A stretch of DNA of 64,000 bases from the NCBI GenBank assembly GCA_000004985.1, contig GG738897.1; one strand, given 5' to 3'. Position 1 is the stretch's first letter, and every line of letters starts with the position of its first letter. This document shows positions 301 to 50,132 of the stretch, one piece after another. The notes below the pieces were generated by a model, which did no database searches, had not been told where the DNA came from, and saw only the letters and a program-made list of their open reading frames with translations. The position numbers were made by a program, and so were the translations under genes. The DNA is from Naegleria gruberi. Its lineage: Eukaryota.

Positions 301-935
301 TATCATTAAATTTTATATCATTCGATAGCCAATGATGAGTAGAACAACGTGTTATATTTAGTTTTTCAATTTATAAAATATTAACTTTGTAAATAGTGTC
401 AGATTAAAATTTGTAAAATGAAACTATAGGAAGAATGATAATTTCAAAATCCTTTAATGAGATTATATAGTATATATCATCATTAACAACATCTATAATC
501 ACTCTCATATCAAATTTCAAAAGTTCAAGTCTGTAGATATAAAAGTATAGAGGGAAAAGGGAAGTTGTGAGGTACAATAGGTCAACAATAACTTTTGAGT
601 TTCTCATCAAAACATATTGAATCCTGACATGAAAATGTTCCATTTGATGAGTATACATCGAATATCAAATTTATTTTGACTTTCATATTTAAAGATTTCT
701 TCCCTCAACCATCATATGGTCAACTAGGTATGAAAAGGATAAAATCTTGAAAAAGAACCACTATTGAAACTTTACCAACATGATGTAGATGATCTATAAT
801 GATGTAGAGTTCAATATCATATCATAAAAATCAGAAATGGTACCGTAGGAAGATAATGGTTGACTTTATAAGGTTGACTTTAAGGAAATACAAGTCAGAC
901 CAAGTCTATCAAATACATCACTTCAATCAGCAAAA

Positions 936-3900
936 NNNNNNNNNNNNNNNNNNNNNNNNNNNNNNNNNNNNNNNNNNNNNNNNNNNNNNNNNNNNNNNNN
1001 NNNNNNNNNNNNNNNNNNNNNNNNNNNNNNNNNNNNNNNNNNNNNNNNNNNNNNNNNNNNNNNNNNNNNNNNNNNNNNNNNNNNNNNNNNNNNNNNNNNN
1101 NNNNNNNNNNNNNNNNNNNNNNNNNNNNNNNNNNNNNNNNNNNNNNNNNNNNNNNNNNNNNNNNNNNNNNNNNNNNNNNNNNNNNNNNNNNNNNNNNNNN
1201 NNNNNNNNNNNNNNNNNNNNNNNNNNNNNNNNNNNNNNNNNNNNNNNNNNNNNNNNNNNNNNNNNNNNNNNNNNNNNNNNNNNNNNNNNNNNNNNNNNNN
1301 NNNNNNNNNNNNNNNNNNNNNNNNNNNNNNNNNNNNNNNNNNNNNNNNNNNNNNNNNNNNNNNNNNNNNNNNNNNNNNNNNNNNNNNNNNNNNNNNNNNN
1401 NNNNNNNNNNNNNNNNNNNNNNNNNNNNNNNNNNNNNNNNNNNNNNNNNNNNNNNNNNNNNNNNNNNNNNNNNNNNNNNNNNNNNNNNNNNNNNNNNNNN
1501 NNNNNNNNNNNNNNNNNNNNNNNNNNNNNNNNNNNNNNNNNNNNNNNNNNNNNNNNNNNNNNNNNNNNNNNNNNNNNNNNNNNNNNNNNNNNNNNNNNNN
1601 NNNNNNNNNNNNNNNNNNNNNNNNNNNNNNNNNNNNNNNNNNNNNNNNNNNNNNNNNNNNNNNNNNNNNNNNNNNNNNNNNNNNNNNNNNNNNNNNNNNN
1701 NNNNNNNNNNNNNNNNNNNNNNNNNNNNNNNNNNNNNNNNNNNNNNNNNNNNNNNNNNNNNNNNNNNNNNNNNNNNNNNNNNNNNNNNNNNNNNNNNNNN
1801 NNNNNNNNNNNNNNNNNNNNNNNNNNNNNNNNNNNNNNNNNNNNNNNNNNNNNNNNNNNNNNNNNNNNNNNNNNNNNNNNNNNNNNNNNNNNNNNNNNNN
1901 NNNNNNNNNNNNNNNNNNNNNNNNNNNNNNNNNNNNNNNNNNNNNNNNNNNNNNNNNNNNNNNNNNNNNNNNNNNNNNNNNNNNNNNNNNNNNNNNNNNN
2001 NNNNNNNNNNNNNNNNNNNNNNNNNNNNNNNNNNNNNNNNNNNNNNNNNNNNNNNNNNNNNNNNNNNNNNNNNNNNNNNNNNNNNNNNNNNNNNNNNNNN
2101 NNNNNNNNNNNNNNNNNNNNNNNNNNNNNNNNNNNNNNNNNNNNNNNNNNNNNNNNNNNNNNNNNNNNNNNNNNNNNNNNNNNNNNNNNNNNNNNNNNNN
2201 NNNNNNNNNNNNNNNNNNNNNNNNNNNNNNNNNNNNNNNNNNNNNNNNNNNNNNNNNNNNNNNNNNNNNNNNNNNNNNNNNNNNNNNNNNNNNNNNNNNN
2301 NNNNNNNNNNNNNNNNNNNNNNNNNNNNNNNNNNNNNNNNNNNNNNNNNNNNNNNNNNNNNNNNNNNNNNNNNNNNNNNNNNNNNNNNNNNNNNNNNNNN
2401 NNNNNNNNNNNNNNNNNNNNNNNNNNNNNNNNNNNNNNNNNNNNNNNNNNNNNNNNNNNNNNNNNNNNNNNNNNNNNNNNNNNNNNNNNNNNNNNNNNNN
2501 NNNNNNNNNNNNNNNNNNNNNNNNNNNNNNNNNNNNNNNNNNNNNNNNNNNNNNNNNNNNNNNNNNNNNNNNNNNNNNNNNNNNNNNNNNNNNNNNNNNN
2601 NNNNNNNNNNNNNNNNNNNNNNNNNNNNNNNNNNNNNNNNNNNNNNNNNNNNNNNNNNNNNNNNNNNNNNNNNNNNNNNNNNNNNNNNNNNNNNNNNNNN
2701 NNNNNNNNNNNNNNNNNNNNNNNNNNNNNNNNNNNNNNNNNNNNNNNNNNNNNNNNNNNNNNNNNNNNNNNNNNNNNNNNNNNNNNNNNNNNNNNNNNNN
2801 NNNNNNNNNNNNNNNNNNNNNNNNNNNNNNNNNNNNNNNNNNNNNNNNNNNNNNNNNNNNNNNNNNNNNNNNNNNNNNNNNNNNNNNNNNNNNNNNNNNN
2901 NNNNNNNNNNNNNNNNNNNNNNNNNNNNNNNNNNNNNNNNNNNNNNNNNNNNNNNNNNNNNNNNNNNNNNNNNNNNNNNNNNNNNNNNNNNNNNNNNNNN
3001 NNNNNNNNNNNNNNNNNNNNNNNNNNNNNNNNNNNNNNNNNNNNNNNNNNNNNNNNNNNNNNNNNNNNNNNNNNNNNNNNNNNNNNNNNNNNNNNNNNNN
3101 NNNNNNNNNNNNNNNNNNNNNNNNNNNNNNNNNNNNNNNNNNNNNNNNNNNNNNNNNNNNNNNNNNNNNNNNNNNNNNNNNNNNNNNNNNNNNNNNNNNN
3201 NNNNNNNNNNNNNNNNNNNNNNNNNNNNNNNNNNNNNNNNNNNNNNNNNNNNNNNNNNNNNNNNNNNNNNNNNNNNNNNNNNNNNNNNNNNNNNNNNNNN
3301 NNNNNNNNNNNNNNNNNNNNNNNNNNNNNNNNNNNNNNNNNNNNNNNNNNNNNNNNNNNNNNNNNNNNNNNNNNNNNNNNNNNNNNNNNNNNNNNNNNNN
3401 NNNNNNNNNNNNNNNNNNNNNNNNNNNNNNNNNNNNNNNNNNNNNNNNNNNNNNNNNNNNNNNNNNNNNNNNNNNNNNNNNNNNNNNNNNNNNNNNNNNN
3501 NNNNNNNNNNNNNNNNNNNNNNNNNNNNNNNNNNNNNNNNNNNNNNNNNNNNNNNNNNNNNNNNNNNNNNNNNNNNNNNNNNNNNNNNNNNNNNNNNNNN
3601 NNNNNNNNNNNNNNNNNNNNNNNNNNNNNNNNNNNNNNNNNNNNNNNNNNNNNNNNNNNNNNNNNNNNNNNNNNNNNNNNNNNNNNNNNNNNNNNNNNNN
3701 NNNNNNNNNNNNNNNNNNNNNNNNNNNNNNNNNNNNNNNNNNNNNNNNNNNNNNNNNNNNNNNNNNNNNNNNNNNNNNNNNNNNNNNNNNNNNNNNNNNN
3801 NNNNNNNNNNNNNNNNNNNNNNNNNNNNNNNNNNNNNNNNNNNNNNNNNNNNNNNNNNNNNNNNNNNNNNNNNNNNNNNNNNNNNNNNNNNNNNNNNNNN

Positions 3901-3965
3901 NNNNNNNNNNNNNNNNNNNNNNNNNNNNNNNNNNNNNNNNNNNNNNNNNNNNNNNNNNNNNNNNN
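936..3965. other. Assembly gap (3,030 N)
   Basis: Uninterrupted run of n; the 1145-aa, 1036-aa and 1015-aa ORFs crossing it in the ORF track are translation artefacts (poly-X). Confidence 1.
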
Positions 3966-4293
3966 ATTATCCAATAATAATAATTTAAATAATTATGCAA
4001 ATAATAATTATAATAATTGTAACAACAATACAAACAATGGTCCTATTAACCTCCATAACAACACGATGATGAGTGTGTTGCATCATGTCAATAATATGAT
4101 CGACAATGAAATGGATTTCGAATTAAAAATGATGATTAACAAATTAATGGATAAATTAAACCAAACAGAGGAAAAAAACACTTTATTGAAATTAATTGGT
4201 TCAACCAGGAATTTACATTATAGAACCCCAGGTAATTCCGAGAAAAACTCAAAATTGAAAGAATTACTATTCAAACTTCTTAATGATGAATAA
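3966..4293 (+). CDS. 3' end of a gene truncated by the gap; Asn-rich low-complexity protein, C-terminal about 108 aa
   Basis: Open frame entering from the N-run and ending at TAA 4291-4293 (…NNTMMSVLHHVNNMIDNEMDFELKMMINKLMDKLNQTEEK…); AT-rich 3' flank. No recognisable domain. Confidence 0.4.
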
Positions 4294-35351: not shown

Positions 35352-36749
<1,398 letters not shown>

Positions 36750-37053: not shown

Positions 37054-39111
37054 TTATTCAAAAGCTTCTCCTATTGAAGAAACTCTTCTTGCTCTCTCTG
37101 TGAAATCGTTCAATGTATCAATTTGACGATTGGTTTGTTCGGAAGTTAATTGTATATTGGTGAGTCTTCTTCTTGATGTAATTGTCTTTGTTAGACCATT
37201 GTAGAATGCCTGACCACGAGAGGACAGAACCTTGTTACGTAAAGCTCGTGGCACCTTTCCTCCAAAATCATTGTAAAATATGGAGGTGTATTTAACAAAG
37301 TTGGCATCAATTTCTTCTAACAAAATTCCTCCTAAAATTTGCCCCTTTACATTGCCCTTCTCAAGTGGAGCATCCTTATTGTCAATGCTCTTCTTGATAA
37401 TGACATAATCTCTACTCTCTGTGCCATCCTCATTAATTTCTCTTCTCACAGTTGTTCCTATACAGTATTCTCTCTTTGAGAGAGGCCACATTAGTTTGTG
37501 TACCTCTTTCTGATAGCTCACTGAGTATTCGTCATTCTTGATATATTCAATAAATTTACAATCTTTCAAATTTGGATCAATGATTTGTGAGTATCTGGTG
37601 TCTAAAAGTGCATCCAACAATTCATCAGTTGTTCCATTCACAATACCAACCTCCTTAATGAGCTTCTTACCATTTGGTTTGTTCTTTTTCTTTTTAGATG
37701 ATGACGTTTGAACTTTTTGAGCGTTGATTTGAGTAGCATTGAACTTGTACTGAGATGAGCTCAAATTTGATACCTTCTTGGATCCCAATTCAGAGTTGAA
37801 AAAGTTAGGATGACTCTCTGCCATTCTCAAATTCTCAAATGATTCATCTGGTTGCTCTATTTGAGAGCCTGTACTAAATCTCTGCTCACTTTCAAATGAT
37901 GAATACTCTTCATTTTGAGAGAGCACTTTCCAAGCATCACTTTTTAACCATAACAATTCATGGAATACATCGAAAAATCTCTCATCAATATTCTTATTAT
38001 CCCTCTCTCTGAGTAATTCTTCGAATCTGTCCTTGATTAGAACTGGTTCATTATCGGTAGAGTGAGAGATGATATCAGAAATGACCTCAGCATGGTTGGT
38101 AGGACACGAATGGCTATGAGTGAATTGAGGAGCAGAGAGTGAGAAGGAAGAGGTCATGCTTAGTGATTGAATTCTAGAACGTCTATTATTTCTAGTACCG
38201 ACGGAGGAAAATAGTGAGACGAGGCACTTTTTCACCGATTCTACATTGGTGGAGCCGACAATATTTGGCAACTCCTTCTTGACATGATTCACTGAATAGG
38301 AAATAAATTGATTACTGGTAATAAATCTTGAAAAGCTATCAGTCTTGAGTGAAATGGTCACCTCAGTCATAGCCTGATCAAACAAGTTAGTTGGGGTATT
38401 GGAAGGAGTGCATTCATCCTCAAATTGATTCACAATTTGGTCTTTGAGAGCGTTAGGTAAATTGAGTTGTTTATCACTAGTGAGTGAGTCATCGACAAAG
38501 GTTTCTACAATATATTTGGCTTGTTGATATCTTTCATTTGAATTGGAAATTTCTCTATAGGTTGGAATGAGTTGAAGAAATTCCAGTGGTGCGCTATTCC
38601 TCTCATACTGAAGAAATTCCCTAAATGCTTCCAAAAAGTCTCCTCCAACATTCATAAATGCATCAAAAACTATTGTAAAATGTTTCATATTTTCCAAAAC
38701 GAGAGATTTAAGAGCAGTCTCATCGATTGAGGCTTGTTTTGTTCCAATAAGTCTGGCTCCTAAATTAATAGGACTATTTGGACCACTTCCATTAGGAAAG
38801 AAGGATCCAGGAGAGTTTGGCATTGATCGTGAGGATGGTATATTACTATTTCCAACAGACAATAAGTTATTACTATTGTTAGAAGAATGATCTGGCACAA
38901 TTCCTAAAGCACTCCACGGAGACATTGGTGATGTTGAAAGCAAACTAGAAGTTGGTGAGCAGGGAGAAACCATACTATTTCCTGAAGGATTATGAGTTGA
39001 CCTCTTGAGAGAAGATGAGGTTGACGAAGTTGGAGAAGTTGCTCTATTATTCATGTTATTATTGCTGTTAGACGAAGATGACGATTTCTGATTTACAAGT
39101 AACATTTTCAA
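37054..39111 (-). CDS. RGS domain plus C-terminal START (StAR-related lipid-transfer) domain protein, paralog A
   Basis: RGS block: FDAFMNVGGDFLEAFREFLQYERNSAPLEFLQLIPTYREI…AKYIVETFV…NLFDQAMTEVTISLKTDSFSRFITSNQF. START block: LIKEVGIVNGTTDELLDALLDTRYSQIIDPNLKDCKFIEYI…LMWPLSKREYCIGTTVRR…VIIKKSIDNKDAPLEKGNVKGQILGGILLEE…FGGKVPRALRNKVLS. Ser/Asn-rich linker. Confidence 0.6.
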   Translation of the reverse strand: MKMLLVNQKSSSSSNSNNNMNNRATSPTSSTSSSLKRSTHNPSGNSMVSPCSPTSSLLSTSPMSPWSALGIVPDHSSNNSNNLLSVGNSNIPSSRSMPNSPGSFFPNGSGPNSPINLGARLIGTKQASIDETALKSLVLENMKHFTIVFDAFMNVGGDFLEAFREFLQYERNSAPLEFLQLIPTYREISNSNERYQQAKYIVETFVDDSLTSDKQLNLPNALKDQIVNQFEDECTPSNTPTNLFDQAMTEVTISLKTDSFSRFITSNQFISYSVNHVKKELPNIVGSTNVESVKKCLVSLFSSVGTRNNRRSRIQSLSMTSSFSLSAPQFTHSHSCPTNHAEVISDIISHSTDNEPVLIKDRFEELLRERDNKNIDERFFDVFHELLWLKSDAWKVLSQNEEYSSFESEQRFSTGSQIEQPDESFENLRMAESHPNFFNSELGSKKVSNLSSSQYKFNATQINAQKVQTSSSKKKKNKPNGKKLIKEVGIVNGTTDELLDALLDTRYSQIIDPNLKDCKFIEYIKNDEYSVSYQKEVHKLMWPLSKREYCIGTTVRREINEDGTESRDYVIIKKSIDNKDAPLEKGNVKGQILGGILLEEIDANFVKYTSIFYNDFGGKVPRALRNKVLSSRGQAFYNGLTKTITSRRRLTNIQLTSEQTNRQIDTLNDFTERARRVSSIGEAFE

Positions 39112-39942
39112 AGTTGTAGTCTATATTGATTAATAGCAAGTGTTCTATGAAATGTTCTGATTCGTGGGTCTGTTCAGGGACACTCTCTCGATATCTATTG
39201 AAAGGTTTTTTTTACAGTAAACAATTCCTTTGGCGCCTTTCAATTGTAGCTAATCACCTCACGTTGTTGTTTGGAAGTGATTGTGTGATGCCGAGAAAGA
39301 AAAAACAAGCCTTGACAAAAAGAGCTTTGTAAATATTTACGGGAAAATTGTTGTATGTTGATGTCAATTAATAAATCAACTAATACGTGTGGTGTGTTGT
39401 TGAAAAAATATTGCTTCTTATTGTATGTGGTGCTGATGAAATATTTGGAACAACTAGCAACACGGGCAATTTCGAATAATAGATCTGAAAGAAAGAAGAA
39501 GGTGTTGTTGAAATGATGAGGTTTTTTTGCAAAGTGCATGCAAAGATTTGTTGCTGCTTGTTGAAAAAAGGATCGTATTAAACCTTTTCAGTTTTCATCA
39601 ATGTTCAAAATAAGATTGGAAAGCAAAAACCGAAATAGTGGGAAACTTTCTCTTTTCGGCTAGTAAAGAACAAATTGAAATGCAAGTCATGGTTAATTGA
39701 GTAGCCAATAATTTACTTGTAATCAAGAAATACAACAACTTTGAAAGAGATTCGAAACAGATGTGATCGTATTGCCTCTTGGAAAGGACTGTTCGTTGAG
39801 GTTACAAGAATGGTTTTACTGGGTCTGTAAGTAGAATAAGTTTATTGTCGTATTTGAGAGAGACAGAAAAAATGATGTTGGTTGACTAATGATATTCCTT
39901 ATTAGCTCAATAAGAGATTCTCATTTCCAGATTGAATCATTT

Positions 39943-41493
39943 TCAATTGGTCATTTCATTAATTTTACCAGTGAATAAAATAGTATTGGTTGGCAAGTGT
40001 TGCAAAATAAATACAAATGGTCGATCAGCAATGAATTGATAGGAAGGAGTAAATTTTTTCATGGCTCTTCCACCACCTCTACCGCCCATTGCAGTAGCTG
40101 CAGCTGCAACTGTTCCAGATTCATCAACTTGAATGAAGGCCTTATGAATAACATTGCTAATGTGTACTTGATCGTTAGAATTGGCCAACATGCTTGAAAA
40201 ATCAGCTTGTGAAGAGAAAATATTCTTGATATTGAATGGATCTTCTCTAAATGATTGCACTAAATTTGGGAGTGTGGCTTGAAATTTGAATTTTGGAATT
40301 TCAATTCTGTCAACCTTTACAAAGGTATTTGGTTGGAGTTGAGTAACATCTTGGAGTTTTTCAATGATCCATTGATTGAAATCATTCTCAGTTTCTTCGT
40401 TGAGTGTGACATTTTCATTTGGTTTAATAAATGTCATGCAGTAATCTTCATCAGAGTAAGGCAATTGCAACAATTGATATTCATCCAAATTGGCATAACA
40501 AAATTTCTTATCAGAAGACATGTGCATCATATCACACTTGTCTCCACCACTTGGATTGGAAATAGTTCTGAAACTCTTCTTGAAGGTGGACCTATTTTTG
40601 AATTGATATTTCCACTTGCCATTGAAATAAATGGCATTCACAAGAACCATAATGGTTTGCCTATTTATATCTGTATCTGAAAGTAAATCTCTAATGTACT
40701 TTCTAGTTTTGTCTTCAACCCACTTGTTGATTAATCTGACTTGAGCAGAGGGCTTATTCATAAAGTCAACTCTCTCTGCTTGGGAATCGAACTTGCTTTC
40801 CAATTCTTGTAAGAATGGCTCTTTAATTTGAACAGTCTCTTGAAGATAAATTCTATTGGCAATGGAGAGTGTATCATTGGTTTGAATCAAGATCTTTATC
40901 ATGTTGGTATACTTTTCAAGTTCAGTTTTCTTCCAATTTTCAAACTTTTCCTTCAAAGTATTGAAATTTCCAACGCTATCATAACTCTTGCTCAAGAATA
41001 ATCCATCAATAATCTCAGTAAGAGATTCATTATTTGTACCCACCATACAATTCAAAAAGCAAATAAAAATTGAGAAGGGAGACATGACAACATTCTCCTT
41101 CAACCCAACTTTTATGCTAAACAAGGCAGATGAAAATTCATTCTCTGCCAATGACATGTTTGTTTGAGAAGTTGACACTCTTCTCTTTCCCCATGACGGT
41201 CTTGTTTGTTTTTGATCATCATTCTCATCAATCATGGCATTATCATCAATTTTACGATTTTTGCCATCATTGAATGAGAGACGATCAGTGTATTGATGAG
41301 TGGCCACTCTTCCACCTCTTGGAGATCCTCCTCTTCTATTGTGATTTCCACCACGATGGCTGGTTGTTGTGGATCGTTCAGAAGGAGGAGTAGATTGACC
41401 AATACCAATAGAAATGGAAGTTGTTGCTTCGGTGGTTGTCTTTTCTAATTGGCCGGTGAGTGGATTATTAGTAAATTTGGTGTGCTTTGGCAT
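39943..41493 (-). CDS. Serpin (serine protease inhibitor), inhibitory-type hinge
   Basis: NAIYFNGKWKYQF, hinge ESGTVAAAATAMGG, signature FIADRPFVFILQH; glycine/arginine-rich reactive loop MGGRGGGRAMKKF. The ORF track starts at 41553, but the A-rich leader suggests the ATG at 41493 (MPKHTKF…). Confidence 0.8.
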   Translation of the reverse strand: MPKHTKFTNNPLTGQLEKTTTEATTSISIGIGQSTPPSERSTTTSHRGGNHNRRGGSPRGGRVATHQYTDRLSFNDGKNRKIDDNAMIDENDDQKQTRPSWGKRRVSTSQTNMSLAENEFSSALFSIKVGLKENVVMSPFSIFICFLNCMVGTNNESLTEIIDGLFLSKSYDSVGNFNTLKEKFENWKKTELEKYTNMIKILIQTNDTLSIANRIYLQETVQIKEPFLQELESKFDSQAERVDFMNKPSAQVRLINKWVEDKTRKYIRDLLSDTDINRQTIMVLVNAIYFNGKWKYQFKNRSTFKKSFRTISNPSGGDKCDMMHMSSDKKFCYANLDEYQLLQLPYSDEDYCMTFIKPNENVTLNEETENDFNQWIIEKLQDVTQLQPNTFVKVDRIEIPKFKFQATLPNLVQSFREDPFNIKNIFSSQADFSSMLANSNDQVHISNVIHKAFIQVDESGTVAAAATAMGGRGGGRAMKKFTPSYQFIADRPFVFILQHLPTNTILFTGKINEMTN

Positions 41494-41649
41494 TGTGTGT
41501 TGTGTTTGAATAAATAATATTTTTTTTTGATTGTTTTTACAATCATTGATCAAGCTATTAATAATTGTTGTTGGAACATGTAGTGAAAATTATTGAACAT
41601 CCTTAAACGGTGTTACACAATAGGTGATTTGATTGTTAAAATAGCATGC

Positions 41650-41943
41650 TTAACAAGCTCCATGATATGAAGTTCCCTCTACTGATTTTGTTGTTGGTTT
41701 AAAAATCGTCTCACCCAAACCAATCTTGTTCGATTTCTTTTCAACCTTCTCGGCATTTGGTTTTCTTTCCTCTCCAACAACAATAGCAGGAAGCTTTTCT
41801 TTGGCTACTGTCTTGGTTCTCTTCTCCACTGTTTTGCTATCTACTTCCACAACCTCGGATGTTGTTTTTTTGGTTGTTTTCGAGACTCTTTGCGATTGGT
41901 TTTTTACCATTTTTTTTTGATCTTGAATGAAAGAGTTATCCAA
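41650..41943 (-). CDS. Small Lys-rich protein (97 aa), hypothetical
   Basis: ORF only; very basic (K/T/V-rich) with no recognisable domain; may be non-coding. Confidence 0.2.
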   Translation of the reverse strand: MDNSFIQDQKKMVKNQSQRVSKTTKKTTSEVVEVDSKTVEKRTKTVAKEKLPAIVVGEERKPNAEKVEKKSNKIGLGETIFKPTTKSVEGTSYHGAC

Positions 41944-42718
41944 TTTAAAGAAGAAATTGTAAACAAGTTAAGAATTGTTCCGTTACCTCCAACAAACTGA
42001 TGATGAAATTGCTTGATGATGTAATGGAACTTACATTTCACTAATCATTCAATGATTTTCAATATAATATTGTTGTTAGAAAACACCATTTCTCAAAGAA
42101 CCAATCGTATGCTAACTCTCACAACAGAATCCATCCAATACTAGTGACAGCAACAAATCGGTACTTCGAGCGTGATGAATCATCAACACCACATATTGAA
42201 ATGGTAGTTGTCAACCTCGTTTAGTTTTTGACAATGTGGATTAATTGGAAAAACAATAACAAAAATCGTAACTGTTCTTTTACTGTTTGGTTATTTTTGC
42301 ATCTGTGAGTCTTTTTCGACAAGTAAAAAAACGCAACACAACTCTTCTCTTGTGAACAAAGTTTTCGTTTCTTCTTCTTTCTAACACTTTCTGTTAGAAA
42401 CAAAACGATTCCTTTGCTTCTTCATCATTGAACAACTTTACACAAAGGGAAGATAATAATAGGGAAACCTTTTGCCATATTTCATCAACCTCTCAAAAAT
42501 TCTGAGCCTTTCACAAGTTGTTTCTCATACTGTTAGAAACCCCAAAAAAAAACACAACCAAACACTTCAACAACAAGTGCAGTAACAAGACACAGCACTA
42601 TATCGACAGTCATTAAGTTTCACATAGGTATTAAATAACAACAACAACAAGAAGGTCAACAACAGTTGTGAAAAACAATTTACGAAACATTATACGAAAC
42701 TAGACTGAAGAAACGGAA

Positions 42719-44563
42719 ATGCGACTTCCTTCTTCACACAACAATAATTATCAAGAAAATCTTTCACATGCCATCCAAGAAACTTTTAAAAAGTATAATG
42801 TACATTTAGAAATGTGTCTTGGCGATGGTTTCATCATGAATGGTTTTTTGGATTTTCTCAAGAATGAACTAAATGCCAGTTCTTTGGAATTTCTTGTTAA
42901 AATTGATGAATATTCGAATAGTCATAATTCGTCTACTTTCTATTCGAATGGCAGTAGTGTCAATAATGTAAATTCACCAGCAGGATTGCTTCCTTCAATT
43001 CAGACATCTACAACAACAATATCAACAATTAGTATTGGTTCTCCGTTGTCTCCATCAGTTTCGTCCACTAGTTTCACCTCACCAGGAAGAAAGGTTCAAA
43101 GAAAGGATTCTCTGAAGGATTTAACAGAACATAATTCAATTTTTTCACAACCCTTCAACAATAACAAGATAAGTAGAAAGGCCAAAGCTAAGGAAATTAT
43201 CGACAAATTTCTCAACGATCATTCAGCACATCAAGTCAACTTGTCCAGTCAAATAAGAGATGCTGTATTGAGAAATTATGAAAAGGAATGTTCTAGAGGA
43301 GGTGGTGAAAATGATATTAATCCACATTTATTTGATGAAGCCAGAACAGAAGTTAGTTTACAATTGAAATGCGACAGTTTCGTCAGATTTTTGAAGAGTC
43401 ATTCTTTTTTCAATTTGATTGTGAGTAAGGTAGAGAAGGAAGTTACCTCAAAGAATTTGGATGCCATTTACAAGTTTTTGAATATCTACTTTTCCAAGAT
43501 TGGAGAGACAAAGAAAAATCAAGTTTCTCAATTTATTACAAATAAGTCGAATAGAGCTCTTTCTCCTGCTTCACCTGCTTCTGGTTCTGGTTCAGGTTCT
43601 GGATCTCCATTGGGATTGGTTTCACCATTGGCTGATCTTTCAAGTGATGATGGTTCCATTGACTCGGTTGAATCAATTACTCATGTCAATCATGTTCAAA
43701 CAATGCTTTCCCTTCATACCCTTTCTCCAAATGGAATAGAAACAAAAATATTGGATAATGTTATGGATATTAGAGAAAAATTCACCAAATCTATTGCTGA
43801 ATTGGTAGATGATATTGTTACTGAGCAACAATTTGATTTACTTATCGAATTGGTCAATAACGAAAGTTTGTGGTTGAAAGTTCACGAAGATTCTGAATCC
43901 TCATGCTTTGTTTCAGAAAACAAATTCTATCACAACAGTAGAGGATTGAAAATTTATAAGGAAGTGGGAATTATTGAATCATCTCCTGAGGAAGTACTCT
44001 TTGCATTGACAGATATGAGAATCTTGAATATCATTGACGATACCATGTCCAATGTGAAATTTGAAAGATTTGTCAAAGGACCTACCTATGCAGTCAGCTA
44101 TTTGAGCAGTAAAATGAAAATGGCTTGGCCAATGAGTGATAGACAATTCCTGATTGGAACTTCCATTAGAGACGAAACATTTGATTCCTACAATGGATAT
44201 ACCATCTTGAGAAGAAGTCACGATTGCAAAGAGGTTCCACTCAGTAAGGGATGCATCAAGGGTATCTTTCTAGGAGGCGTTGTTATTGAGAAATTGAGTG
44301 AAAAACACACAAGATTCACAGCTTCAGGATTTGTTGACATGGGTGGCAAATTCCCACTTTCTCTCTTTAACAAGATTCTTTCACTAAGACAATCAAAAGG
44401 TGTTGAAAATGTCAAGAAGGGAATTTCAAAGAGAAGAAACATGCCACTTACAGAACAACAAGTCAACTCTGAAAATTCATTCTACTTGTTGGATACTCTC
44501 TTCTACTCGAGAGAACACAAAACTCAACCAAACAGTAGCAGCTCTCACACTCCTTCATTTTAA
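42719..44563 (+). CDS. RGS domain plus C-terminal START domain protein, paralog B (head-to-head with paralog A across the serpin)
   Basis: RGS block: GFIMNGFLDFLKNELNASSLEFLVKIDEYS…KAKEIIDKFL…HLFDEARTEVSLQLKCDSFVRFLKSHSF. START block: LKIYKEVGIIESSPEEVLFALTDMRILNIIDDTMSNVKFERFV…MAWPMSDRQFLIGTSIRD…GIFLGGVVIEKL…FVDMGGKFPLSLFNKILS. Confidence 0.6.
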   Translation: MRLPSSHNNNYQENLSHAIQETFKKYNVHLEMCLGDGFIMNGFLDFLKNELNASSLEFLVKIDEYSNSHNSSTFYSNGSSVNNVNSPAGLLPSIQTSTTTISTISIGSPLSPSVSSTSFTSPGRKVQRKDSLKDLTEHNSIFSQPFNNNKISRKAKAKEIIDKFLNDHSAHQVNLSSQIRDAVLRNYEKECSRGGGENDINPHLFDEARTEVSLQLKCDSFVRFLKSHSFFNLIVSKVEKEVTSKNLDAIYKFLNIYFSKIGETKKNQVSQFITNKSNRALSPASPASGSGSGSGSPLGLVSPLADLSSDDGSIDSVESITHVNHVQTMLSLHTLSPNGIETKILDNVMDIREKFTKSIAELVDDIVTEQQFDLLIELVNNESLWLKVHEDSESSCFVSENKFYHNSRGLKIYKEVGIIESSPEEVLFALTDMRILNIIDDTMSNVKFERFVKGPTYAVSYLSSKMKMAWPMSDRQFLIGTSIRDETFDSYNGYTILRRSHDCKEVPLSKGCIKGIFLGGVVIEKLSEKHTRFTASGFVDMGGKFPLSLFNKILSLRQSKGVENVKKGISKRRNMPLTEQQVNSENSFYLLDTLFYSREHKTQPNSSSSHTPSF

Positions 44564-45853: not shown

Positions 45854-47692
45854 ATGAGTGTTATTGAGAATTATTCTAATATTCAATCTACTACTACCTC
45901 TGCTAACAATAAGAGCAATTTTACAAGTTTAACCACATCAACAATGATATCGAATCAAACACCACCTCAACAAGGTGTTGTCAATACTCAAACACCAACT
46001 CTACGTACCCAACAAGAAATTAAAGCAGATTTGTATCAAGCAGTCATAAAAGGTATGATCAGCAGGGTACAAGAATGTTTGGAAGAGTTGTTGTCACTCG
46101 CTCATATTACTCAAAATACTGCCAATTCAACTGGTCAACTGTCATCTCCAGTTATTGGAAATGTATTGTATTCAACCTCACCTACTTCCCCTACTCACGT
46201 TAGTACCAACGGATTGGTTACAACACCAACATCAGATTTAGTCAACTCTGTAGAAGAATCAATTACCAATAATCATCCAGTTTCCTCCCCAAATAATTCA
46301 GTATCCTCTTCATCTTCATCTTTAATGATTGGTAGCCCAAATAATCATCTTTCAACTCACCTCTCAACAAGTGGATCACAAAAATTAATAACTATGGATC
46401 AAATAATACTGAAAACAACATTCCCTGAAGAATTTGATATGAATGTTGTTCATCTGTCGGCAAAACATGCACAAGCAGATATTCTCCAACACGTTATTTC
46501 ATCTGCTTGTTGTGATGAAAAGTGTTCGAATACAAATGGTGGTCCAAACGCCAATCACTCAAATGAATGTCAAAGAAAAACAAATGCTCTCCTATCAAGT
46601 GTGGATAAGCAAAATGCCACTCCAATTTTCTATGCTGTACAATCAGGATCAAATGGAATTTGTGCATTTTTATGTAGTTTTAAAATTGTACAGGATCAGT
46701 TAAATTTGCATGCTGATCGATATGGTTTCTTACCTGTTCACTGGGCTTTGAAGAGAAAACAATTCGAAATTAGTGATACATTACAATTATTTGGTGCAAA
46801 ACTCGATACCACTGTTGGTATCGGTGTTGGTCTTGGAGAATCTGTACTTCATATTGCTGTCAGAGAAAAATCTATGGAAAGCATTGAATATTTGGCAAAG
46901 ACAAAACCTGGTATCCTTTTAAAGAAAAATTCACAAGAAGAAAATGCTCTCTTTGTATGTTTGACTGATTTCAGAGGAACCAGAATTAAGAGGATTGAAG
47001 AATCTTTCCTCACCAAGCTTCTCCCAACTGGAGGTGATTTGTTTGGAAATGATGCATTCGAAAGAGCAATTCTTCAAAAGAATGGTCATGGTAGAAATAT
47101 CTTGATGGAATCTATTGCAAAGAATGACATGTCTTCCTTCTATGCTATCTTACAATATCTCTATCATGAAAAGAATTCAACAAAACAAAGATTAATTCCA
47201 ATTCTTTTCAACGAAGTTGATTCTCAACAAAAGAATTTGATGCACTTGTGTGTTCAATCAGTATTTTTGACAGGTATGGCCTTTGATCCTGATACAGATG
47301 AAGCTTCTCTTGATTGGATGAATGCTCTCGAATGGACTCATGATTTTATTGAAACTGTCAGTCCAGTATTGAAACTCAGCAAGATGGCTCACTTATTCCT
47401 TGCCAAGGATAAATATGGTGACACTCCAAAAGAAAGTTGTAATCAATTCTATGATGCCACCAGTGATGCACAAGAACCTTTAATTATTGCAGAATCCATT
47501 TCCGAGTCTCTTTTGGAAGCAGCCACCAGTTGGGCTTCTGGAAAAAAGCGAAAATCAAAGAAGGGTGGAAGAAAAACACTTAACTTTTCTGATACTGACG
47601 AAAATCAAAATGCCAAAGCTCCAAGAGCCTCGTCGCTCCATCAAGTTATGGATTTCATTGGTATTACTGTCAAGAGAGGTTTCAAGAAATAA
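45854..47692 (+). CDS. Ankyrin-repeat-containing protein
   Basis: Several 33-residue ANK-like units (TPIFYAVQSGSNGICAFL…; GFLPVHWALKRKQFEISDTL…; ESVLHIAVREKSMESIEYL…; RNILMESIAKNDMSSFYAIL). N-terminal Ser/Thr/Asn-rich region. Confidence 0.45.
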   Translation: MSVIENYSNIQSTTTSANNKSNFTSLTTSTMISNQTPPQQGVVNTQTPTLRTQQEIKADLYQAVIKGMISRVQECLEELLSLAHITQNTANSTGQLSSPVIGNVLYSTSPTSPTHVSTNGLVTTPTSDLVNSVEESITNNHPVSSPNNSVSSSSSSLMIGSPNNHLSTHLSTSGSQKLITMDQIILKTTFPEEFDMNVVHLSAKHAQADILQHVISSACCDEKCSNTNGGPNANHSNECQRKTNALLSSVDKQNATPIFYAVQSGSNGICAFLCSFKIVQDQLNLHADRYGFLPVHWALKRKQFEISDTLQLFGAKLDTTVGIGVGLGESVLHIAVREKSMESIEYLAKTKPGILLKKNSQEENALFVCLTDFRGTRIKRIEESFLTKLLPTGGDLFGNDAFERAILQKNGHGRNILMESIAKNDMSSFYAILQYLYHEKNSTKQRLIPILFNEVDSQQKNLMHLCVQSVFLTGMAFDPDTDEASLDWMNALEWTHDFIETVSPVLKLSKMAHLFLAKDKYGDTPKESCNQFYDATSDAQEPLIIAESISESLLEAATSWASGKKRKSKKGGRKTLNFSDTDENQNAKAPRASSLHQVMDFIGITVKRGFKK

Positions 47693-47877
47693 AAACATAA
47701 TAAAATTCCAAAAACATTTAAAAATTTTGTATTTTAAATAGATCAAGTCAATTATTGTAAAGTTAGTTTGGAGACTTGACACCCAAAAGTAAGTTCAAAT
47801 AAACTTCAAGTTCAAATATTTTCACAAAATGTAACACGTGAACTTGCTGATTTGTTCGAAATTGTTTATTGAAGATC

Positions 47878-48945
47878 TCATAAAAATTCCTCAACAAAAG
47901 ATTGATCAAGTTTGGGAGACACTTTTGGAGATGTAATCATAGGCTCATCACTCAGTACTGTAAATGAATTGGTTGGGGAAATACCATCGCTCAATATCAT
48001 TGATTCATTGTTCTCATCACCAACTCTTCTTCTCTTGTCTCCATTACTTATTGATGAATGTTTGGATTTGAGAGGTTGTACGAAAAAGAGGCCCTCATTG
48101 GAGGTCAGTTTGAGTGGCTTTCCTCTGTGGAGCTGATTCTTTTCCTGATTATTCTTGGGTGAAATATTCTTGGAGAGTGCTGGACTAGTGAGTTTAGTGG
48201 ACTCGTTCAATAGTAAAATTCTATCAAGGGGAGTCTCGTAGGTAGTAGTGGCATTATTATGTACATTGGTTGAAAAAGTTGTTGAATTATTGGAATAGTC
48301 TACAGATGAGGTAGTCAAACAGTTAGTCATATAGCAGGTATTGGAAGTAATTGGTTTATCCACAATATTGAAATCAAAATCCAATTCTATCGAATTGTTT
48401 CTATCGAGTTTGGAAATATTTTGTTCAATCAATTGATTACTCGTAGTAGTAATATTTAAACCAACAAATTGTGAATGGTTGTGATCAATTGTTGAAGTGT
48501 TGTTATTACTTCCTTTAAAGAAGTGAAAGATATCAAGTTTGTTTTGCTTTTTCAACTTTCTCTTCTTTTCCTTCTTCTTTTCGTTAGCATTCTTATCGTT
48601 AGTGGAGGAAACAATTTGGGAAGGAATTATAATTGGATGATTAGTCATGGAAAATCTTCTCTTATTATTGGAATTTAACATGGTAAAGGAGGAAATTACA
48701 CTCGATGAGGATGGTAAATTATCTTCAATGGTTTCTTCTTCCTTCTTTTGTTCTATCATTTCATAAAGTTGATGACAGTTACAGGTTTCGTATTTCTCTT
48801 CAGTAGAATGATGATGATGGTGATGATGATGATCTTTCGAGAGTCGAAATAATCTTTTGAAAGGATTAGACGAAACTACTCCAATGTTATTAGTGTTGTT
48901 TGTTGTTGTGTTATTATTATTTGAATGATGAATATTGGTGACCAT
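47878..48945 (-). CDS. Low-complexity Asn/Ser/Thr-rich protein with His8 run and basic KKKEKKRKLKK patch; unknown function
   Basis: 355-aa ORF, compositionally typical of this genome's coding DNA; no domain recognised. Confidence 0.35.
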   Translation of the reverse strand: MVTNIHHSNNNNTTTNNTNNIGVVSSNPFKRLFRLSKDHHHHHHHHSTEEKYETCNCHQLYEMIEQKKEEETIEDNLPSSSSVISSFTMLNSNNKRRFSMTNHPIIIPSQIVSSTNDKNANEKKKEKKRKLKKQNKLDIFHFFKGSNNNTSTIDHNHSQFVGLNITTTSNQLIEQNISKLDRNNSIELDFDFNIVDKPITSNTCYMTNCLTTSSVDYSNNSTTFSTNVHNNATTTYETPLDRILLLNESTKLTSPALSKNISPKNNQEKNQLHRGKPLKLTSNEGLFFVQPLKSKHSSISNGDKRRRVGDENNESMILSDGISPTNSFTVLSDEPMITSPKVSPKLDQSFVEEFL

Positions 48946-50132
48946 TTTGCTATTTGTGAATGAGTCAGACGAAACTACTGATGATGGAGATTGGAAACTC
49001 TTGGGTGATTAGGTTTCTTTCACTGCTTGTCTTATTGGATACTATTCAAGTCTTTGAAGGCTAAAATAGATTAGGCAGTGTCAGTCTGGAGAGATAGGTC
49101 GGTTGAGTACGTTTTTTTTAAATATTAATTTAACTCTTACATTTAGTTTCGAATACATCGACCACGAAATAGAACGAAGAATTGTATGAAGTCAAACAAA
49201 TGAGACTATGAAACTACAACAGGAAGTTTAAGGAAGTAGTAGCAGCAATTTGGACAATTATTTAATTGCTAATATTGTCATTCTCATCAACATGTCATTG
49301 AATAACACAGATTCCTTCCAAAAGGACATGTTGTGTATCAATTTAAAACAATAAAGGTGGGAATTGGCAAAGCTATATTCGCTTGACTCATTCATTGTCA
49401 GTGGTAAAATTGCTGAGTAAAGATCGGAATGAATAGTCTAGCTTTGGTGATAAATAGATGACTAGATCATTGCATGATGGTGAATTAATAATTGCTATTC
49501 GCCACATTAATAATTTTGTTAATTGATGAAATTACAATCGTCATCATGTTCTTATTCTTCCGTAAGAAGCAGCACCGTTGATAAAAGGCAGTGGATGGAT
49601 TTAGAACTCTGCAATAGGCAACTTGGATTACTAAATTTCTTTTTGAAAGACTACAATTAATTGTTCTTCCATCCTCTTTCTTCTTTGTTCCTCTTCATTG
49701 TTGTGCTTCCTCACATGCTTATTTTGTATTAAGGAATTTTTTTTGAGGCTTTTTGTGTTTGACGCTGTGAAGATGAAGGCTTTGATTTTTCTTAATAAAA
49801 AAAATTACGGAAAATAGGCTTTTGAAAATTTATTTTAATGATGATTTTAGAAATATTATTATTGTATTCGTAACTATAATTATACTTGTAACTGTATTAG
49901 TTGAATGAAAAGGTGATATGGAGAAGATTGGAAAGAGAGTTTGAATTATATCGGAAGGAATGAATAACCAATTTTTATTTAAATAATGATAATTATTAAT
50001 ATTAAAAAAATCAATCATCTTTATTGAATAATTAATAATGAATGAATAATAATAATACACAATAATAGCTTGAACACTAATGAACTAATACAACTAATAG
50101 AATCAATTTAGAAAGCAAAAATCATCAAAAAA

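What the first reader, a model, noticed from the sequence alone, without database searches (positions are those of the whole stretch)
37054..44563. Head-to-head pair of RGS-START fusion paralogs flanking a serpin
Two paralogous genes (37054..39111 minus; 42719..44563 plus) each combine an N-terminal RGS domain with a C-terminal START lipid-binding domain. This is a domain pairing I do not recall as characterised; it would couple G-alpha GAP activity to a sterol/lipid ligand pocket. They are divergently oriented about 3.6 kb apart. A complete inhibitory-type serpin (39943..41493) and a tiny basic ORF lie between their 5' ends. The paralogs are diverged (roughly 30-40% identity by eye), so the duplication is old, yet the arrangement is retained.
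Basis: partly seen in the sequence, partly recalled or inferred. Interest (0 to 1): 0.65.

Follow-up and report, generated by a model that had tools for sequence, protein, structure and literature searches.

The report
Naegleria RGS-START gene pair
Two neighbouring, divergently transcribed Naegleria gruberi genes each encode a G-protein "off-switch" (RGS) domain fused to a lipid-binding START domain. They belong to a large, uncharacterised family found so far only in heterolobosean amoebae, and the serpin gene between them is a species-specific neighbour, not part of a conserved unit.

Summary

Several interpretations need correcting. The organism is Naegleria gruberi (Heterolobosea), not an amoebozoan. 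RGS+START combinations were already listed in a 2014 survey, though I found no functional study. The genes belong to a family in which 102 of the 151 best representative clusters share the RGS-then-START order, and every named member is heterolobosean (Naegleria, Willaertia, Acrasis).

The head-to-head A/B pair is kept in N. fowleri and N. lovaniensis, 1.1-1.5 kb apart and without any serpin. So the serpin is a lineage-specific insertion or loss.

The catalytic Asn128 equivalent is nearly invariant in the family. Asp163 and Arg167 equivalents are present in both genes, but the Glu87/Asn88 loop is altered.

Most likely these are cytosolic G-alpha GAPs whose START domain supplies lipid-dependent targeting or regulation. 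That mechanism is inferred, not shown. A sister subfamily adds a BLUF light sensor, which fits a sensor-coupled-GAP reading. Interest is moderate to low.

The parts
37054..39054 (-). Gene A (NAEGRDRAFT_72378, XP_002672506.1), 666-aa RGS-START protein. The ORF extends upstream to an alternative ATG at 39105 and a TTG at 39111.
   Evidence: ORF; 100% tblastn match to P0003; Pfam RGS E=3.1e-16; START 35 bits when scanned alone; AF2 mean pLDDT 77
38200..38721 (-). Gene A RGS domain (aa 112-285 of the 666-aa model). The Asn128 equivalent is N198.
   Evidence: AF2 helices 112-285 with pLDDT >90; PDB sequence hits to RGS18/5/8/4; residue mapping
37114..38043 (-). Gene A START domain (aa 338-647), with a disordered insert of about 68 aa (aa 394-462) in a beta-hairpin. 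The family-invariant Arg is R528.
   Evidence: Pfam START E=1.3e-8; Foldseek STARD4 target TM 0.85, STARD5 0.79, CERT about 0.74
39943..41493 (-). Serpin, 516 aa from ATG 41493. It has a low-complexity, RGG-rich N-terminal extension of about 135 aa and an inhibitory-type hinge. It is not part of the conserved pair.
   Evidence: Pfam Serpin E=2.9e-79; best PDB match Drosophila Spn4, E=5e-47, with RCL alignment; absent near the pair in N. fowleri and N. lovaniensis; N. gruberi paralogs at 47-49% identity elsewhere
41650..41910 (-). Small Lys-rich ORF (86 aa, pI 9.75). Its status as a gene is undecided.
   Evidence: ORF; no Pfam hit; not on record as a called gene; no tblastn match in related loci; two ORFs of at least 86 aa in the 2-kb intergenic DNA against 0.09 expected in shuffles
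42719..44563 (+). Gene B, 614-aa RGS-START protein (N. gruberi 'predicted protein', P0001)
   Evidence: ORF; 100% match; Pfam RGS E=1.5e-16 and START E=8.9e-7; AF2 mean pLDDT 79.7
42746..43501 (+). Gene B RGS domain (aa 10-261, nine helices), split by a disordered S/T/N-rich insert (aa 73-139, DNA 42935..43135) between helices 4 and 5. The Asn128 equivalent is N174.
43739..44521 (+). Gene B START domain (aa 341-601). The family-invariant Arg is R475.

Best explanation
The two genes are ordinary, single-exon, protein-coding members of a heterolobosean-specific family of soluble RGS-START proteins. The gene pair arose by duplication before N. gruberi split from the N. fowleri/N. lovaniensis lineage, and it has stayed head-to-head since. 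The serpin, and possibly a small ORF, entered or was retained in the intergenic space only in the N. gruberi lineage and is functionally unrelated.

Proposed mechanism (inferred): the R4-like RGS domain binds GTP-bound G-alpha subunits at the membrane and accelerates GTP hydrolysis. The C-terminal START domain binds a hydrophobic lipid, identity unknown. Through that lipid it either targets the GAP to membranes of a particular lipid composition or makes GAP activity depend on lipid occupancy. Some Naegleria G-alpha subunits self-activate and are rate-limited by GTP hydrolysis. In that setting, sensor-coupled RGS proteins would be a point where signals enter the pathway.

Shown here: domain identities, folds, conservation of key RGS residues, family distribution and synteny. 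Inferred: GAP activity, lipid binding, and the coupling between them.
For: Domains and folds:
- Pfam RGS and START exceed the curated cutoffs in both genes.
- AF2 models have pLDDT >90 in both domains.

RGS residues:
- The RGS4 Asn128 equivalent is kept in 97/102 family members. Asp163 is kept in 68/102 and Arg167 in 53/102. Both window genes have all three, plus Ser164.

Selection:
- Both domains are 45-61% identical between N. gruberi and N. fowleri orthologs, against 19-27% in gene B's insert and linker.

Family:
- 102 of the 151 best representatives have RGS then START in the same order.
- Pfam finds RGS in 72/72 aligned members and START in 41/72.
- Named members are only Naegleria gruberi, N. 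fowleri, N. lovaniensis, Willaertia magna and Acrasis kona.
- A subfamily appends a BLUF photosensor C-terminal to START. That fits RGS as the output and the C-terminal modules as inputs.

Synteny:
- The A and B orthologs are head-to-head in N. fowleri and N. lovaniensis with no serpin.

Literature context:
- Naegleria has self-activating G-alpha subunits, and N. fowleri has about 80 RGS proteins. Its tested RGS domains use the canonical RGS/G-alpha interface (PMC9283941).
- Membrane localisation is a prerequisite for RGS GAP activity, and fungal RGS-LOV proteins couple a sensor to membrane recruitment (PMC6099885).
Against: - No biochemical or expression data exist for any family member, and no paper names these genes.
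- In both window genes the RGS4 Glu87 equivalent is Ala (A) or Ser (B), although 65/102 family members keep Glu. Asn88 is Pro or Ser, and Ser85 is Asn. From my own knowledge, charge reversal at Glu87-equivalent positions abolishes G-alpha binding in RGS4, RGS16 and AtRGS1. So G-alpha binding could be weakened or re-specified.
- The START ligand cannot be predicted. By a weak HMMER alignment (E=0.0014), the PCTP choline-cage and Arg78 positions are not conserved.
- The AF2 pTM of 0.55 and the disordered 70-aa linker give no evidence of a fixed RGS-START interface, which argues against tight allostery and mildly favours a targeting role.
- I could not read the model coordinates, so I could not inspect the cavity.
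Confidence: 0.55

Rival explanations
1. Effector model. The RGS domain mainly acts as a docking module for G-alpha-GTP, and the START domain is the output. Activated G-alpha recruits a lipid-transfer or lipid-extraction activity to a membrane, so the protein is a G-alpha effector as well as a GAP.
For: The Naegleria and Entamoeba RGS-RhoGEFs use a canonical RGS domain both as a GAP and as the effector-recruiting module (PMC9283941). The best structural matches of the START domains are genuine lipid-transfer proteins: STARD10, CERT, STARD4/5 and PCTP. A long flexible linker suits a tethered transfer domain.
Against: There is no evidence of lipid transfer. Relatives that add a BLUF sensor look more like multi-input regulators than transfer machines. 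The proteins lack the membrane-contact-site targeting motifs (PH, FFAT) that CERT uses, as far as Pfam shows.
Confidence: 0.2
2. The RGS domain is a non-catalytic RGS-homology scaffold, as in Axin, sorting nexins or GRKs. The proteins would have nothing to do with G-alpha GTP hydrolysis, and START would act as a localisation or protein-interaction module.
Against: Asn128 is nearly invariant across the family (97/102), and Asp163, Ser164 and Arg167 are present in both genes. The closest sequence matches are R4-class GAPs (RGS18/5/8/4). Rmsd to G-alpha-bound RGS4 is 1.5 A at 29% identity.
Confidence: 0.15
3. One reading: RGS-START / serpin / RGS-START is a conserved functional block, co-regulated or functionally linked.
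For: The three genes are adjacent in N. gruberi. The A/B pair stayed together through a flanking rearrangement.
Against: There is no serpin within +/-10 kb of the pair in N. fowleri or N. lovaniensis. The metagenomic B-like locus L001 has neither a serpin nor an A-like gene in the 3.7 kb of contig upstream. The serpin's nearest relatives are N. gruberi paralogs on other scaffolds, and no N. fowleri or N. lovaniensis ortholog appears among the 120 best hits. Unrelated neighbours are retained just as well (tubulin with the 551-aa gene, ankyrin with the 438-aa gene), so pair retention is ordinary microsynteny.
Confidence: 0.05

Closest known systems
R4-class RGS proteins (RGS3, RGS4, RGS8, RGS18)
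   Different: Ser85, Glu87 and Asn88 of the alpha3-alpha4 loop are replaced (N-S-A-P in gene A, N-A-S-S in gene B). Gene B has a disordered insert of about 67 aa (aa 73-139) between helices 4 and 5. A START domain is fused at the C-terminus instead of the short amphipathic N-terminal helix of R4 proteins.
DLC1/2/3 (STARD12/13/8): RhoGAP-START proteins (own knowledge for the architecture)
   Same: A GTPase-accelerating domain is followed by a C-terminal START domain. The STARD13 START domain is among the structural matches.
   Different: The GAP domain there is a RhoGAP acting on small GTPases, not an RGS acting on heterotrimeric G-alpha. The families are not homologous outside START and occur in animals rather than Heterolobosea.
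Fungal RGS-LOV photoreceptors (BcLOV4; PMC6099885)
   Same: [quoted passage not shown] The sensor state controls binding to membrane lipids, which is proposed to gate access to G-alpha. The RGS-START-BLUF relatives found here are an especially close parallel.
   Different: The sensor there is a LOV flavin photoreceptor plus an amphipathic helix, not a START lipid pocket. There is no homology outside RGS. GAP activity was not demonstrated there either.
SNX13/14/25 (PXA-RGS-PX-PXC sorting nexins)
   Different: These are membrane-anchored and have PX/PXA lipid modules rather than START. They form an opisthokont family.
Minimal START lipid-transfer proteins (STARD10, PCTP/STARD2, CERT START, STARD4/5)
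   Different: Only 13-20% identity. The PCTP head-group residues are apparently not conserved (weak alignment). Gene A carries a disordered hairpin insert of about 68 aa. The ligand is unknown.

Membership tests
RGS domain (Pfam PF00615), canonical G-alpha GAP type | Sequence match to the RGS profile above the curated threshold | tested here: met
   A 60.3 bits and B 61.3 bits against a cutoff of 23.9. 72/72 family members match.
RGS domain (Pfam PF00615), canonical G-alpha GAP type | Nine-helix RGS bundle fold | tested here: met
RGS domain (Pfam PF00615), canonical G-alpha GAP type | Catalytic or contact Asn (RGS4 Asn128) and the alpha7-alpha8 contacts Asp163, Ser164 and Arg167 | tested here: met
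   Present in both genes (N198 and N174 for Asn128). Family conservation: Asn128 in 97/102, Asp163 in 68/102, Arg167 in 53/102.
RGS domain (Pfam PF00615), canonical G-alpha GAP type | Alpha3-alpha4 loop contacts Ser85, Glu87 and Asn88 (the 'SEEN' motif of RGS4) | tested here: not met
   Gene A has N-S-A-P and gene B has N-A-S-S. The family consensus is N-x-E-(P/S), with Glu kept in 65/102 but not in A or B.
RGS domain (Pfam PF00615), canonical G-alpha GAP type | GAP activity on, and transition-state-selective binding to, a G-alpha subunit | not testable with these tools
   Needs biochemical assays of the kind used by Bosch et al. 2022.
START domain (Pfam PF01852) | Sequence match to the START profile above the curated threshold | tested here: met
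   B scores 28.9-31.1 bits. A scores 35 bits when the C-terminus is scanned alone. The cutoff is 22. A's hit is lost in the full-length scan. 41/72 family members match at E<1e-3.
START domain (Pfam PF01852) | Helix-grip fold: N-terminal helix, nine-stranded antiparallel sheet, long C-terminal helix | tested here: met
START domain (Pfam PF01852) | A hydrophobic tunnel that holds one lipid molecule, with demonstrable lipid binding | not testable with these tools
   Model coordinates could not be inspected and no ligand assay is possible. PCTP head-group residues appear not to be conserved (weak alignment).
Inhibitory serpins (Pfam PF00079) | Full-length serpin core plus a hinge consensus (P17 E, P15 G, P14 T/S, P12-P9 small residues) that permits loop insertion | tested here: met
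   Pfam E=2.9e-79, covering profile positions 3-368 of 370. The hinge E-S-G-T-V-A-A-A-A-T-A-M aligns to the Spn4 RCL, with a probable P1 Arg. Inhibition itself was not tested.
   The A/B head-to-head pair is conserved in N. fowleri and N. lovaniensis, but there is no serpin within +/-10 kb.

The most novel reading that the evidence does not exclude
RGS-START proteins, and their RGS-START-BLUF relatives, are a heterolobosean class of ligand-gated G-alpha GAPs. In this reading, occupancy of the START pocket by a specific membrane lipid or sterol, or blue light in the BLUF subfamily, switches GAP activity or membrane recruitment. For Naegleria's self-activating G-alpha subunits the signal would then enter through a soluble RGS 'receptor' rather than through a GPCR. 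This is a cytosolic counterpart of the plant 7TM-RGS logic.
Probability: 0.2. Interest if true: 0.65.

Novelty: new variant of a known kind. Interest (0 to 1): 0.32.

Why it matters
Heterotrimeric G-protein signalling in Naegleria is unusually rich. It includes self-activating G-alpha subunits for which GTP hydrolysis, and therefore RGS proteins, is the rate-limiting control point (PMC9283941). A large, conserved family that joins a canonical-looking RGS domain to a lipid pocket, and in some members to a blue-light sensor, gives concrete candidates for how intracellular lipid state or light could feed into that control point.

The N. fowleri orthologs belong to a lethal pathogen in which this pathway has been proposed as a drug target.

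The limits are clear. The architecture has already been catalogued, both domains are ordinary, nothing is known about function, and the gene-order feature that drew attention (the serpin between the paralogs) is incidental.

Tried and rejected
1. Word-indexed homolog searches with full-length gene B and with a START-region profile returned only the query itself and one metagenomic relative. Low-complexity words presumably swamped the candidate lists. The exhaustive HMMER search was needed.
2. The look-up of encoding contigs holds no record of the N. gruberi proteins, so N. gruberi paralog loci and the loci of the serpin paralogs could not be examined.
3. The AFDB50 fold library was unavailable, so I could not survey architectures in AFDB.
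4. Anantharaman et al. 2011 (Gene 475:63) and the supplement of de Mendoza 2014, which probably show the RGS-START architectures and their taxa, are not held.
5. I tested whether A and B are exclusive sister paralogs from a local inverted duplication. This was not supported (0/100 NJ bootstraps), though resolution is low.
6. I looked for conserved intergenic or promoter DNA between N. gruberi and N. fowleri or N. lovaniensis. Nothing exceeded chance. N. fowleri and N. lovaniensis share one 199-bp segment at 73% identity.
7. I tried to infer the START ligand from PCTP and CERT residue alignment. The alignment is too weak (E=0.0014 and above), so I dropped it.
8. I considered whether the small basic ORF is a gene. 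The result is undecided.
9. I scanned the whole window for further RGS or START genes and found none.
Full report
WHAT IS THERE

The window is AT-rich eukaryotic DNA (about 34% G+C).
- a 685-codon ORF at 37054..39111 on the minus strand (gene A);
- a 614-codon ORF at 42719..44563 on the plus strand (gene B);
- between their 5' ends, a minus-strand serpin ORF (39943..41553, with ATG at 41493) and a small Lys-rich ORF (41650..41943, with ATG at 41910).

Gene B is 100% identical to an NCBI 'predicted protein' of Naegleria gruberi. Gene A is 100% identical from ATG 39054 to XP_002672506.1 / NAEGRDRAFT_72378. Both are single-exon genes.

DOMAINS

Pfam finds RGS in both proteins (E=3.1e-16 and 1.5e-16) and START in gene B (28.9 bits, cutoff 22). 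Gene A gave no START hit in the full-length scan. Its C-terminus scanned alone scores 35 bits, E=1.3e-8, so the earlier miss was presumably a filter effect of the low-complexity sequence.

The paralogs are 33% identical over aligned positions in the full-length alignment, 38% over START and 36% over RGS.

I predicted structures with AlphaFold2 on a 72-sequence family alignment.
- Gene B has mean pLDDT 79.7, with >90 in the folded parts. It shows a nine-helix bundle (aa 10-67 and 153-261) split by a disordered insert (73-139), a disordered linker (268-337), and an alpha/beta helix-grip domain (341-601).
- Gene A has mean pLDDT 77.1. RGS spans 112-285 and START spans 340-665, with a disordered hairpin insert at 394-462.

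IS THE RGS DOMAIN LIKELY TO BE A GAP?

I aligned 102 family RGS domains with RGS4. The recalled RGS4 sequence reproduces the known numbering (S85, N128, D163, R167). Results:
- The Asn128 equivalent is kept in 97/102, Asp163 in 68 and Arg167 in 53.
- Both window genes have Asn128, Asp163, Ser164 and Arg167 (N198 in A and N174 in B for Asn128).
- The alpha3-alpha4 'SEEN' loop differs. The family consensus is N-x-E-(P/S). Genes A and B have additionally lost the Glu87 equivalent (Ala in A, Ser in B).

So the fold and the central catalytic contact argue for a G-alpha-directed RGS. The altered loop leaves specificity and potency open.

THE FAMILY

An exhaustive HMMER search of 1.84 billion cluster representatives with a full-length profile gave 1146 hits at E<1e-3 and 155 at E<1e-10. 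Using sub-profiles of the two domains, 102 of the 151 best representatives have RGS followed by START in the same order. They are typically 400-700 aa long. Pfam independently finds RGS in 72/72 aligned members and START in 41/72.

Every hit that carries a source name is heterolobosean:
- N. gruberi has at least five paralogs: A, B, NAEGRDRAFT_52759, NAEGRDRAFT_68141 and NAEGRDRAFT_59196. The last is on the same scaffold as A and B.
- The others come from N. fowleri, N. lovaniensis, Willaertia magna and Acrasis kona.
- The remaining hits are unnamed metagenomic sequences.

Only 30 of the hits were looked up for names, so the taxonomic range is a lower bound.

A subfamily has a third, C-terminal BLUF blue-light sensor domain (E down to 9e-27). 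It includes Willaertia and Acrasis proteins and metagenomic relatives.

PRIOR KNOWLEDGE

de Mendoza et al. [quoted passage not shown] The pairing had therefore been catalogued. The figure showing it and Anantharaman et al. 2011 were not available to me.

I found no functional study of RGS-START and no paper naming these genes.

Bosch et al. 2022 (PMC9283941) show that N. fowleri has 79 RGS proteins beyond the 7TM-RGS class. They also show that the tested RGS domains use the canonical RGS/G-alpha interface, and that some Naegleria G-alpha subunits are self-activating and limited by GTP hydrolysis.

GENE ORDER

I fetched the loci of the N. fowleri A ortholog and the N. lovaniensis B ortholog and compared them by tblastn. 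Both species keep an A ortholog (45-46% identity) and a B ortholog (47-52%) head-to-head, 1.5 kb and 1.1 kb apart.

Neither species has a serpin within +/-10 kb. The serpin's nearest relatives are two N. gruberi paralogs on other scaffolds (47-49% identity). No N. fowleri or N. lovaniensis serpin appears among the 120 best hits. The serpin is therefore a lineage-specific occupant of the intergenic space (gained in N. gruberi or lost in the other lineage), not part of a conserved block.

The flanks differ between species:
- Reversed N. fowleri order: 536-aa gene, tubulin, 419-aa gene, 357-aa gene, ankyrin, A, B, RGS-only gene.
- N. gruberi order: 551-aa gene, tubulin, A, serpin, B, ankyrin, 355-aa gene, 438-aa gene.

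So a three-gene block has been moved and inverted around the pair while the pair's junction survived. Unrelated neighbours are retained equally well (tubulin with the 551-aa gene, ankyrin with the 438-aa gene). Retention of the pair is therefore consistent with ordinary microsynteny and does not by itself demonstrate selection for co-regulation.

A metagenomic B-like locus (L001, 52% identity) has no A-like gene and no serpin in the 3.7 kb of contig upstream. It shares the RGS-only gene downstream of B that N. fowleri and N. lovaniensis have.

An NJ tree (405 columns, 100 bootstraps) supports the B clade at 100% and the A clade at 53%. It never recovers A and B as exclusive sisters. Together with two dispersed N. 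gruberi paralog clades, they form a Naegleria-level radiation. The duplication predates the split of the three Naegleria species.

Both domains are under purifying selection. Identity between N. gruberi and N. fowleri orthologs is 45-61% in the domains, against 19-27% in gene B's insert and linker.

MECHANISM

Shown: two intact, conserved domains of known function classes, joined by a flexible linker, in a soluble protein with no Pfam-detected membrane-targeting module.

Inferred: the RGS domain acts on membrane-bound G-alpha-GTP. The START domain binds a lipid and supplies membrane targeting or lipid-dependent regulation. I favour targeting or loose regulation over rigid allostery, because the linker is long and disordered and the models give no confident interdomain packing (pTM 0.55-0.56).

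Three things make a sensor-coupled GAP the most economical reading:
- the BLUF-bearing relatives found here;
- the characterised fungal RGS-LOV photoreceptors, in which the sensor state controls membrane-lipid binding and membrane localisation is described as a prerequisite for GAP activity (PMC6099885);
- the animal RhoGAP-START (DLC) proteins (architecture from my own knowledge).

The rivals are a G-alpha effector that delivers START lipid-transfer activity, and a non-catalytic RGS scaffold. Neither is excluded. I give the favoured mechanism about even odds. The structural and evolutionary description is close to certain.

SERPIN AND SMALL ORF

The serpin has a complete core (Pfam E=2.9e-79). 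Its hinge (ESGTVAAAATAM) matches the inhibitory consensus. Alignment to Drosophila Spn4 places an Arg at the probable P1 position (GGGR|AM). It has a low-complexity, RGG-rich N-terminal extension of about 135 aa and no obvious signal peptide.

The 86-aa basic ORF has no Pfam hit, no match in the related loci, and is not on record as a gene. ORFs of this length are rarer in shuffled intergenic sequence (0.09 expected, 2 observed), so its status stays open.

VERDICT

The setting is more ordinary than proposed:
- The taxon was misidentified.
- The architecture had already been catalogued.
- The genes are two members of a large heterolobosean family.
- The serpin is incidental.

What remains of interest is the family itself: an uncharacterised, conserved coupling of a canonical-looking RGS domain to a lipid pocket, sometimes with a light sensor, in organisms where GAPs may be the main control point of G-protein signalling. 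I score interest at about 0.3.

Noticed in passing
Related proteins P0042 (Willaertia magna KAL9658754.1), P0048 and P0099 (Acrasis kona), P0064, P0070, P0085 (metagenomes); not in the window: A subfamily of the RGS-START family carries a third, C-terminal BLUF blue-light sensor domain (Pfam PF04940, E from 1e-22 to 9e-27), giving the architecture RGS-START-BLUF. A literature search for BLUF plus RGS found no description. The nearest characterised analogue is the fungal RGS-LOV group.
   Followed up: partly
L002 6712-8485 (N. fowleri GCA_008403515.1) versus L003 6703-8475 (Logan SRR29240419): The N. fowleri ortholog of gene B is split into a 327-aa RGS ORF and a 257-aa START ORF in the reference assembly. 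It is an intact 590-aa ORF in an independent assembly. This is either a frameshift or assembly error, or a strain difference.
   Followed up: partly
P0028, P0048, P0099 (Acrasis kona KAL0491886.1, KAL0486363.1, KAL0480502.1): Public names look misleading. An RGS-START protein is named 'cytochrome P450'. RGS-START-BLUF proteins are named 'photoactivated adenylate cyclase subunit alpha', presumably because of the BLUF domain alone.
   Followed up: no
window 39943-41493 (-): The serpin has a low-complexity N-terminal extension of about 135 aa with RGG-like repeats (HRGGNHNRRGGSPRGGR) and no obvious signal peptide, which suggests an intracellular, possibly nuclear or RNA-associated serpin. N. gruberi has two paralogs (47-49% identity) on other scaffolds. 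No N. fowleri or N. lovaniensis ortholog appeared among the 120 best hits.
   Followed up: partly
window 45854-51449 compared with L002 12921-17784 and L004 1394-6015: The block of ankyrin-repeat gene, 355-aa gene and 438-aa gene lies downstream of gene B in N. gruberi. In N. fowleri and N. lovaniensis it lies between gene A and beta-tubulin, in the opposite orientation. This is an inverted transposition, or two nested inversions, around the intact A/B pair.
   Followed up: yes
L002 4796-5962 (-), L004 12312-13442 (+), L001 5586-6305 (+); also L002 3-2267 and L004 13976-16567: In N. fowleri, N. lovaniensis and the metagenomic locus, an RGS-only paralog (376-388 aa) sits immediately downstream of the B ortholog. 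In N. fowleri and N. lovaniensis a distant START-containing gene (633-658 aa) lies two genes further on. This small RGS/START cluster is absent at the corresponding position in the N. gruberi window.
   Followed up: partly
window 936-3965: A run of N (an assembly gap of about 3 kb). The long ORFs listed across it (856..4293 and others) are artefacts.
   Followed up: yes
window 35352-36707 (-): An intronless beta-tubulin gene lies immediately downstream of gene A. Its protein is about 99% identical to the N. fowleri and N. lovaniensis copies, against 45-52% for the RGS-START orthologs, which shows how fast the latter evolve.
   Followed up: partly
window 42935-43135 (+), gene B aa 73-139: A disordered, Ser/Thr/Asn-rich insert of about 67 aa interrupts the RGS domain between helices 4 and 5. 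It is absent from gene A and poorly conserved in B orthologs (25-27% identity). It explains why Pfam matched only the C-terminal two-thirds of the RGS profile in gene B.
   Followed up: partly
window 39240-39539 (-): A second ATG-started ORF (99 aa, Phe-rich, low complexity) lies between the serpin stop and the start of gene A. It does not look protein-coding, but I did not test it.
   Followed up: no
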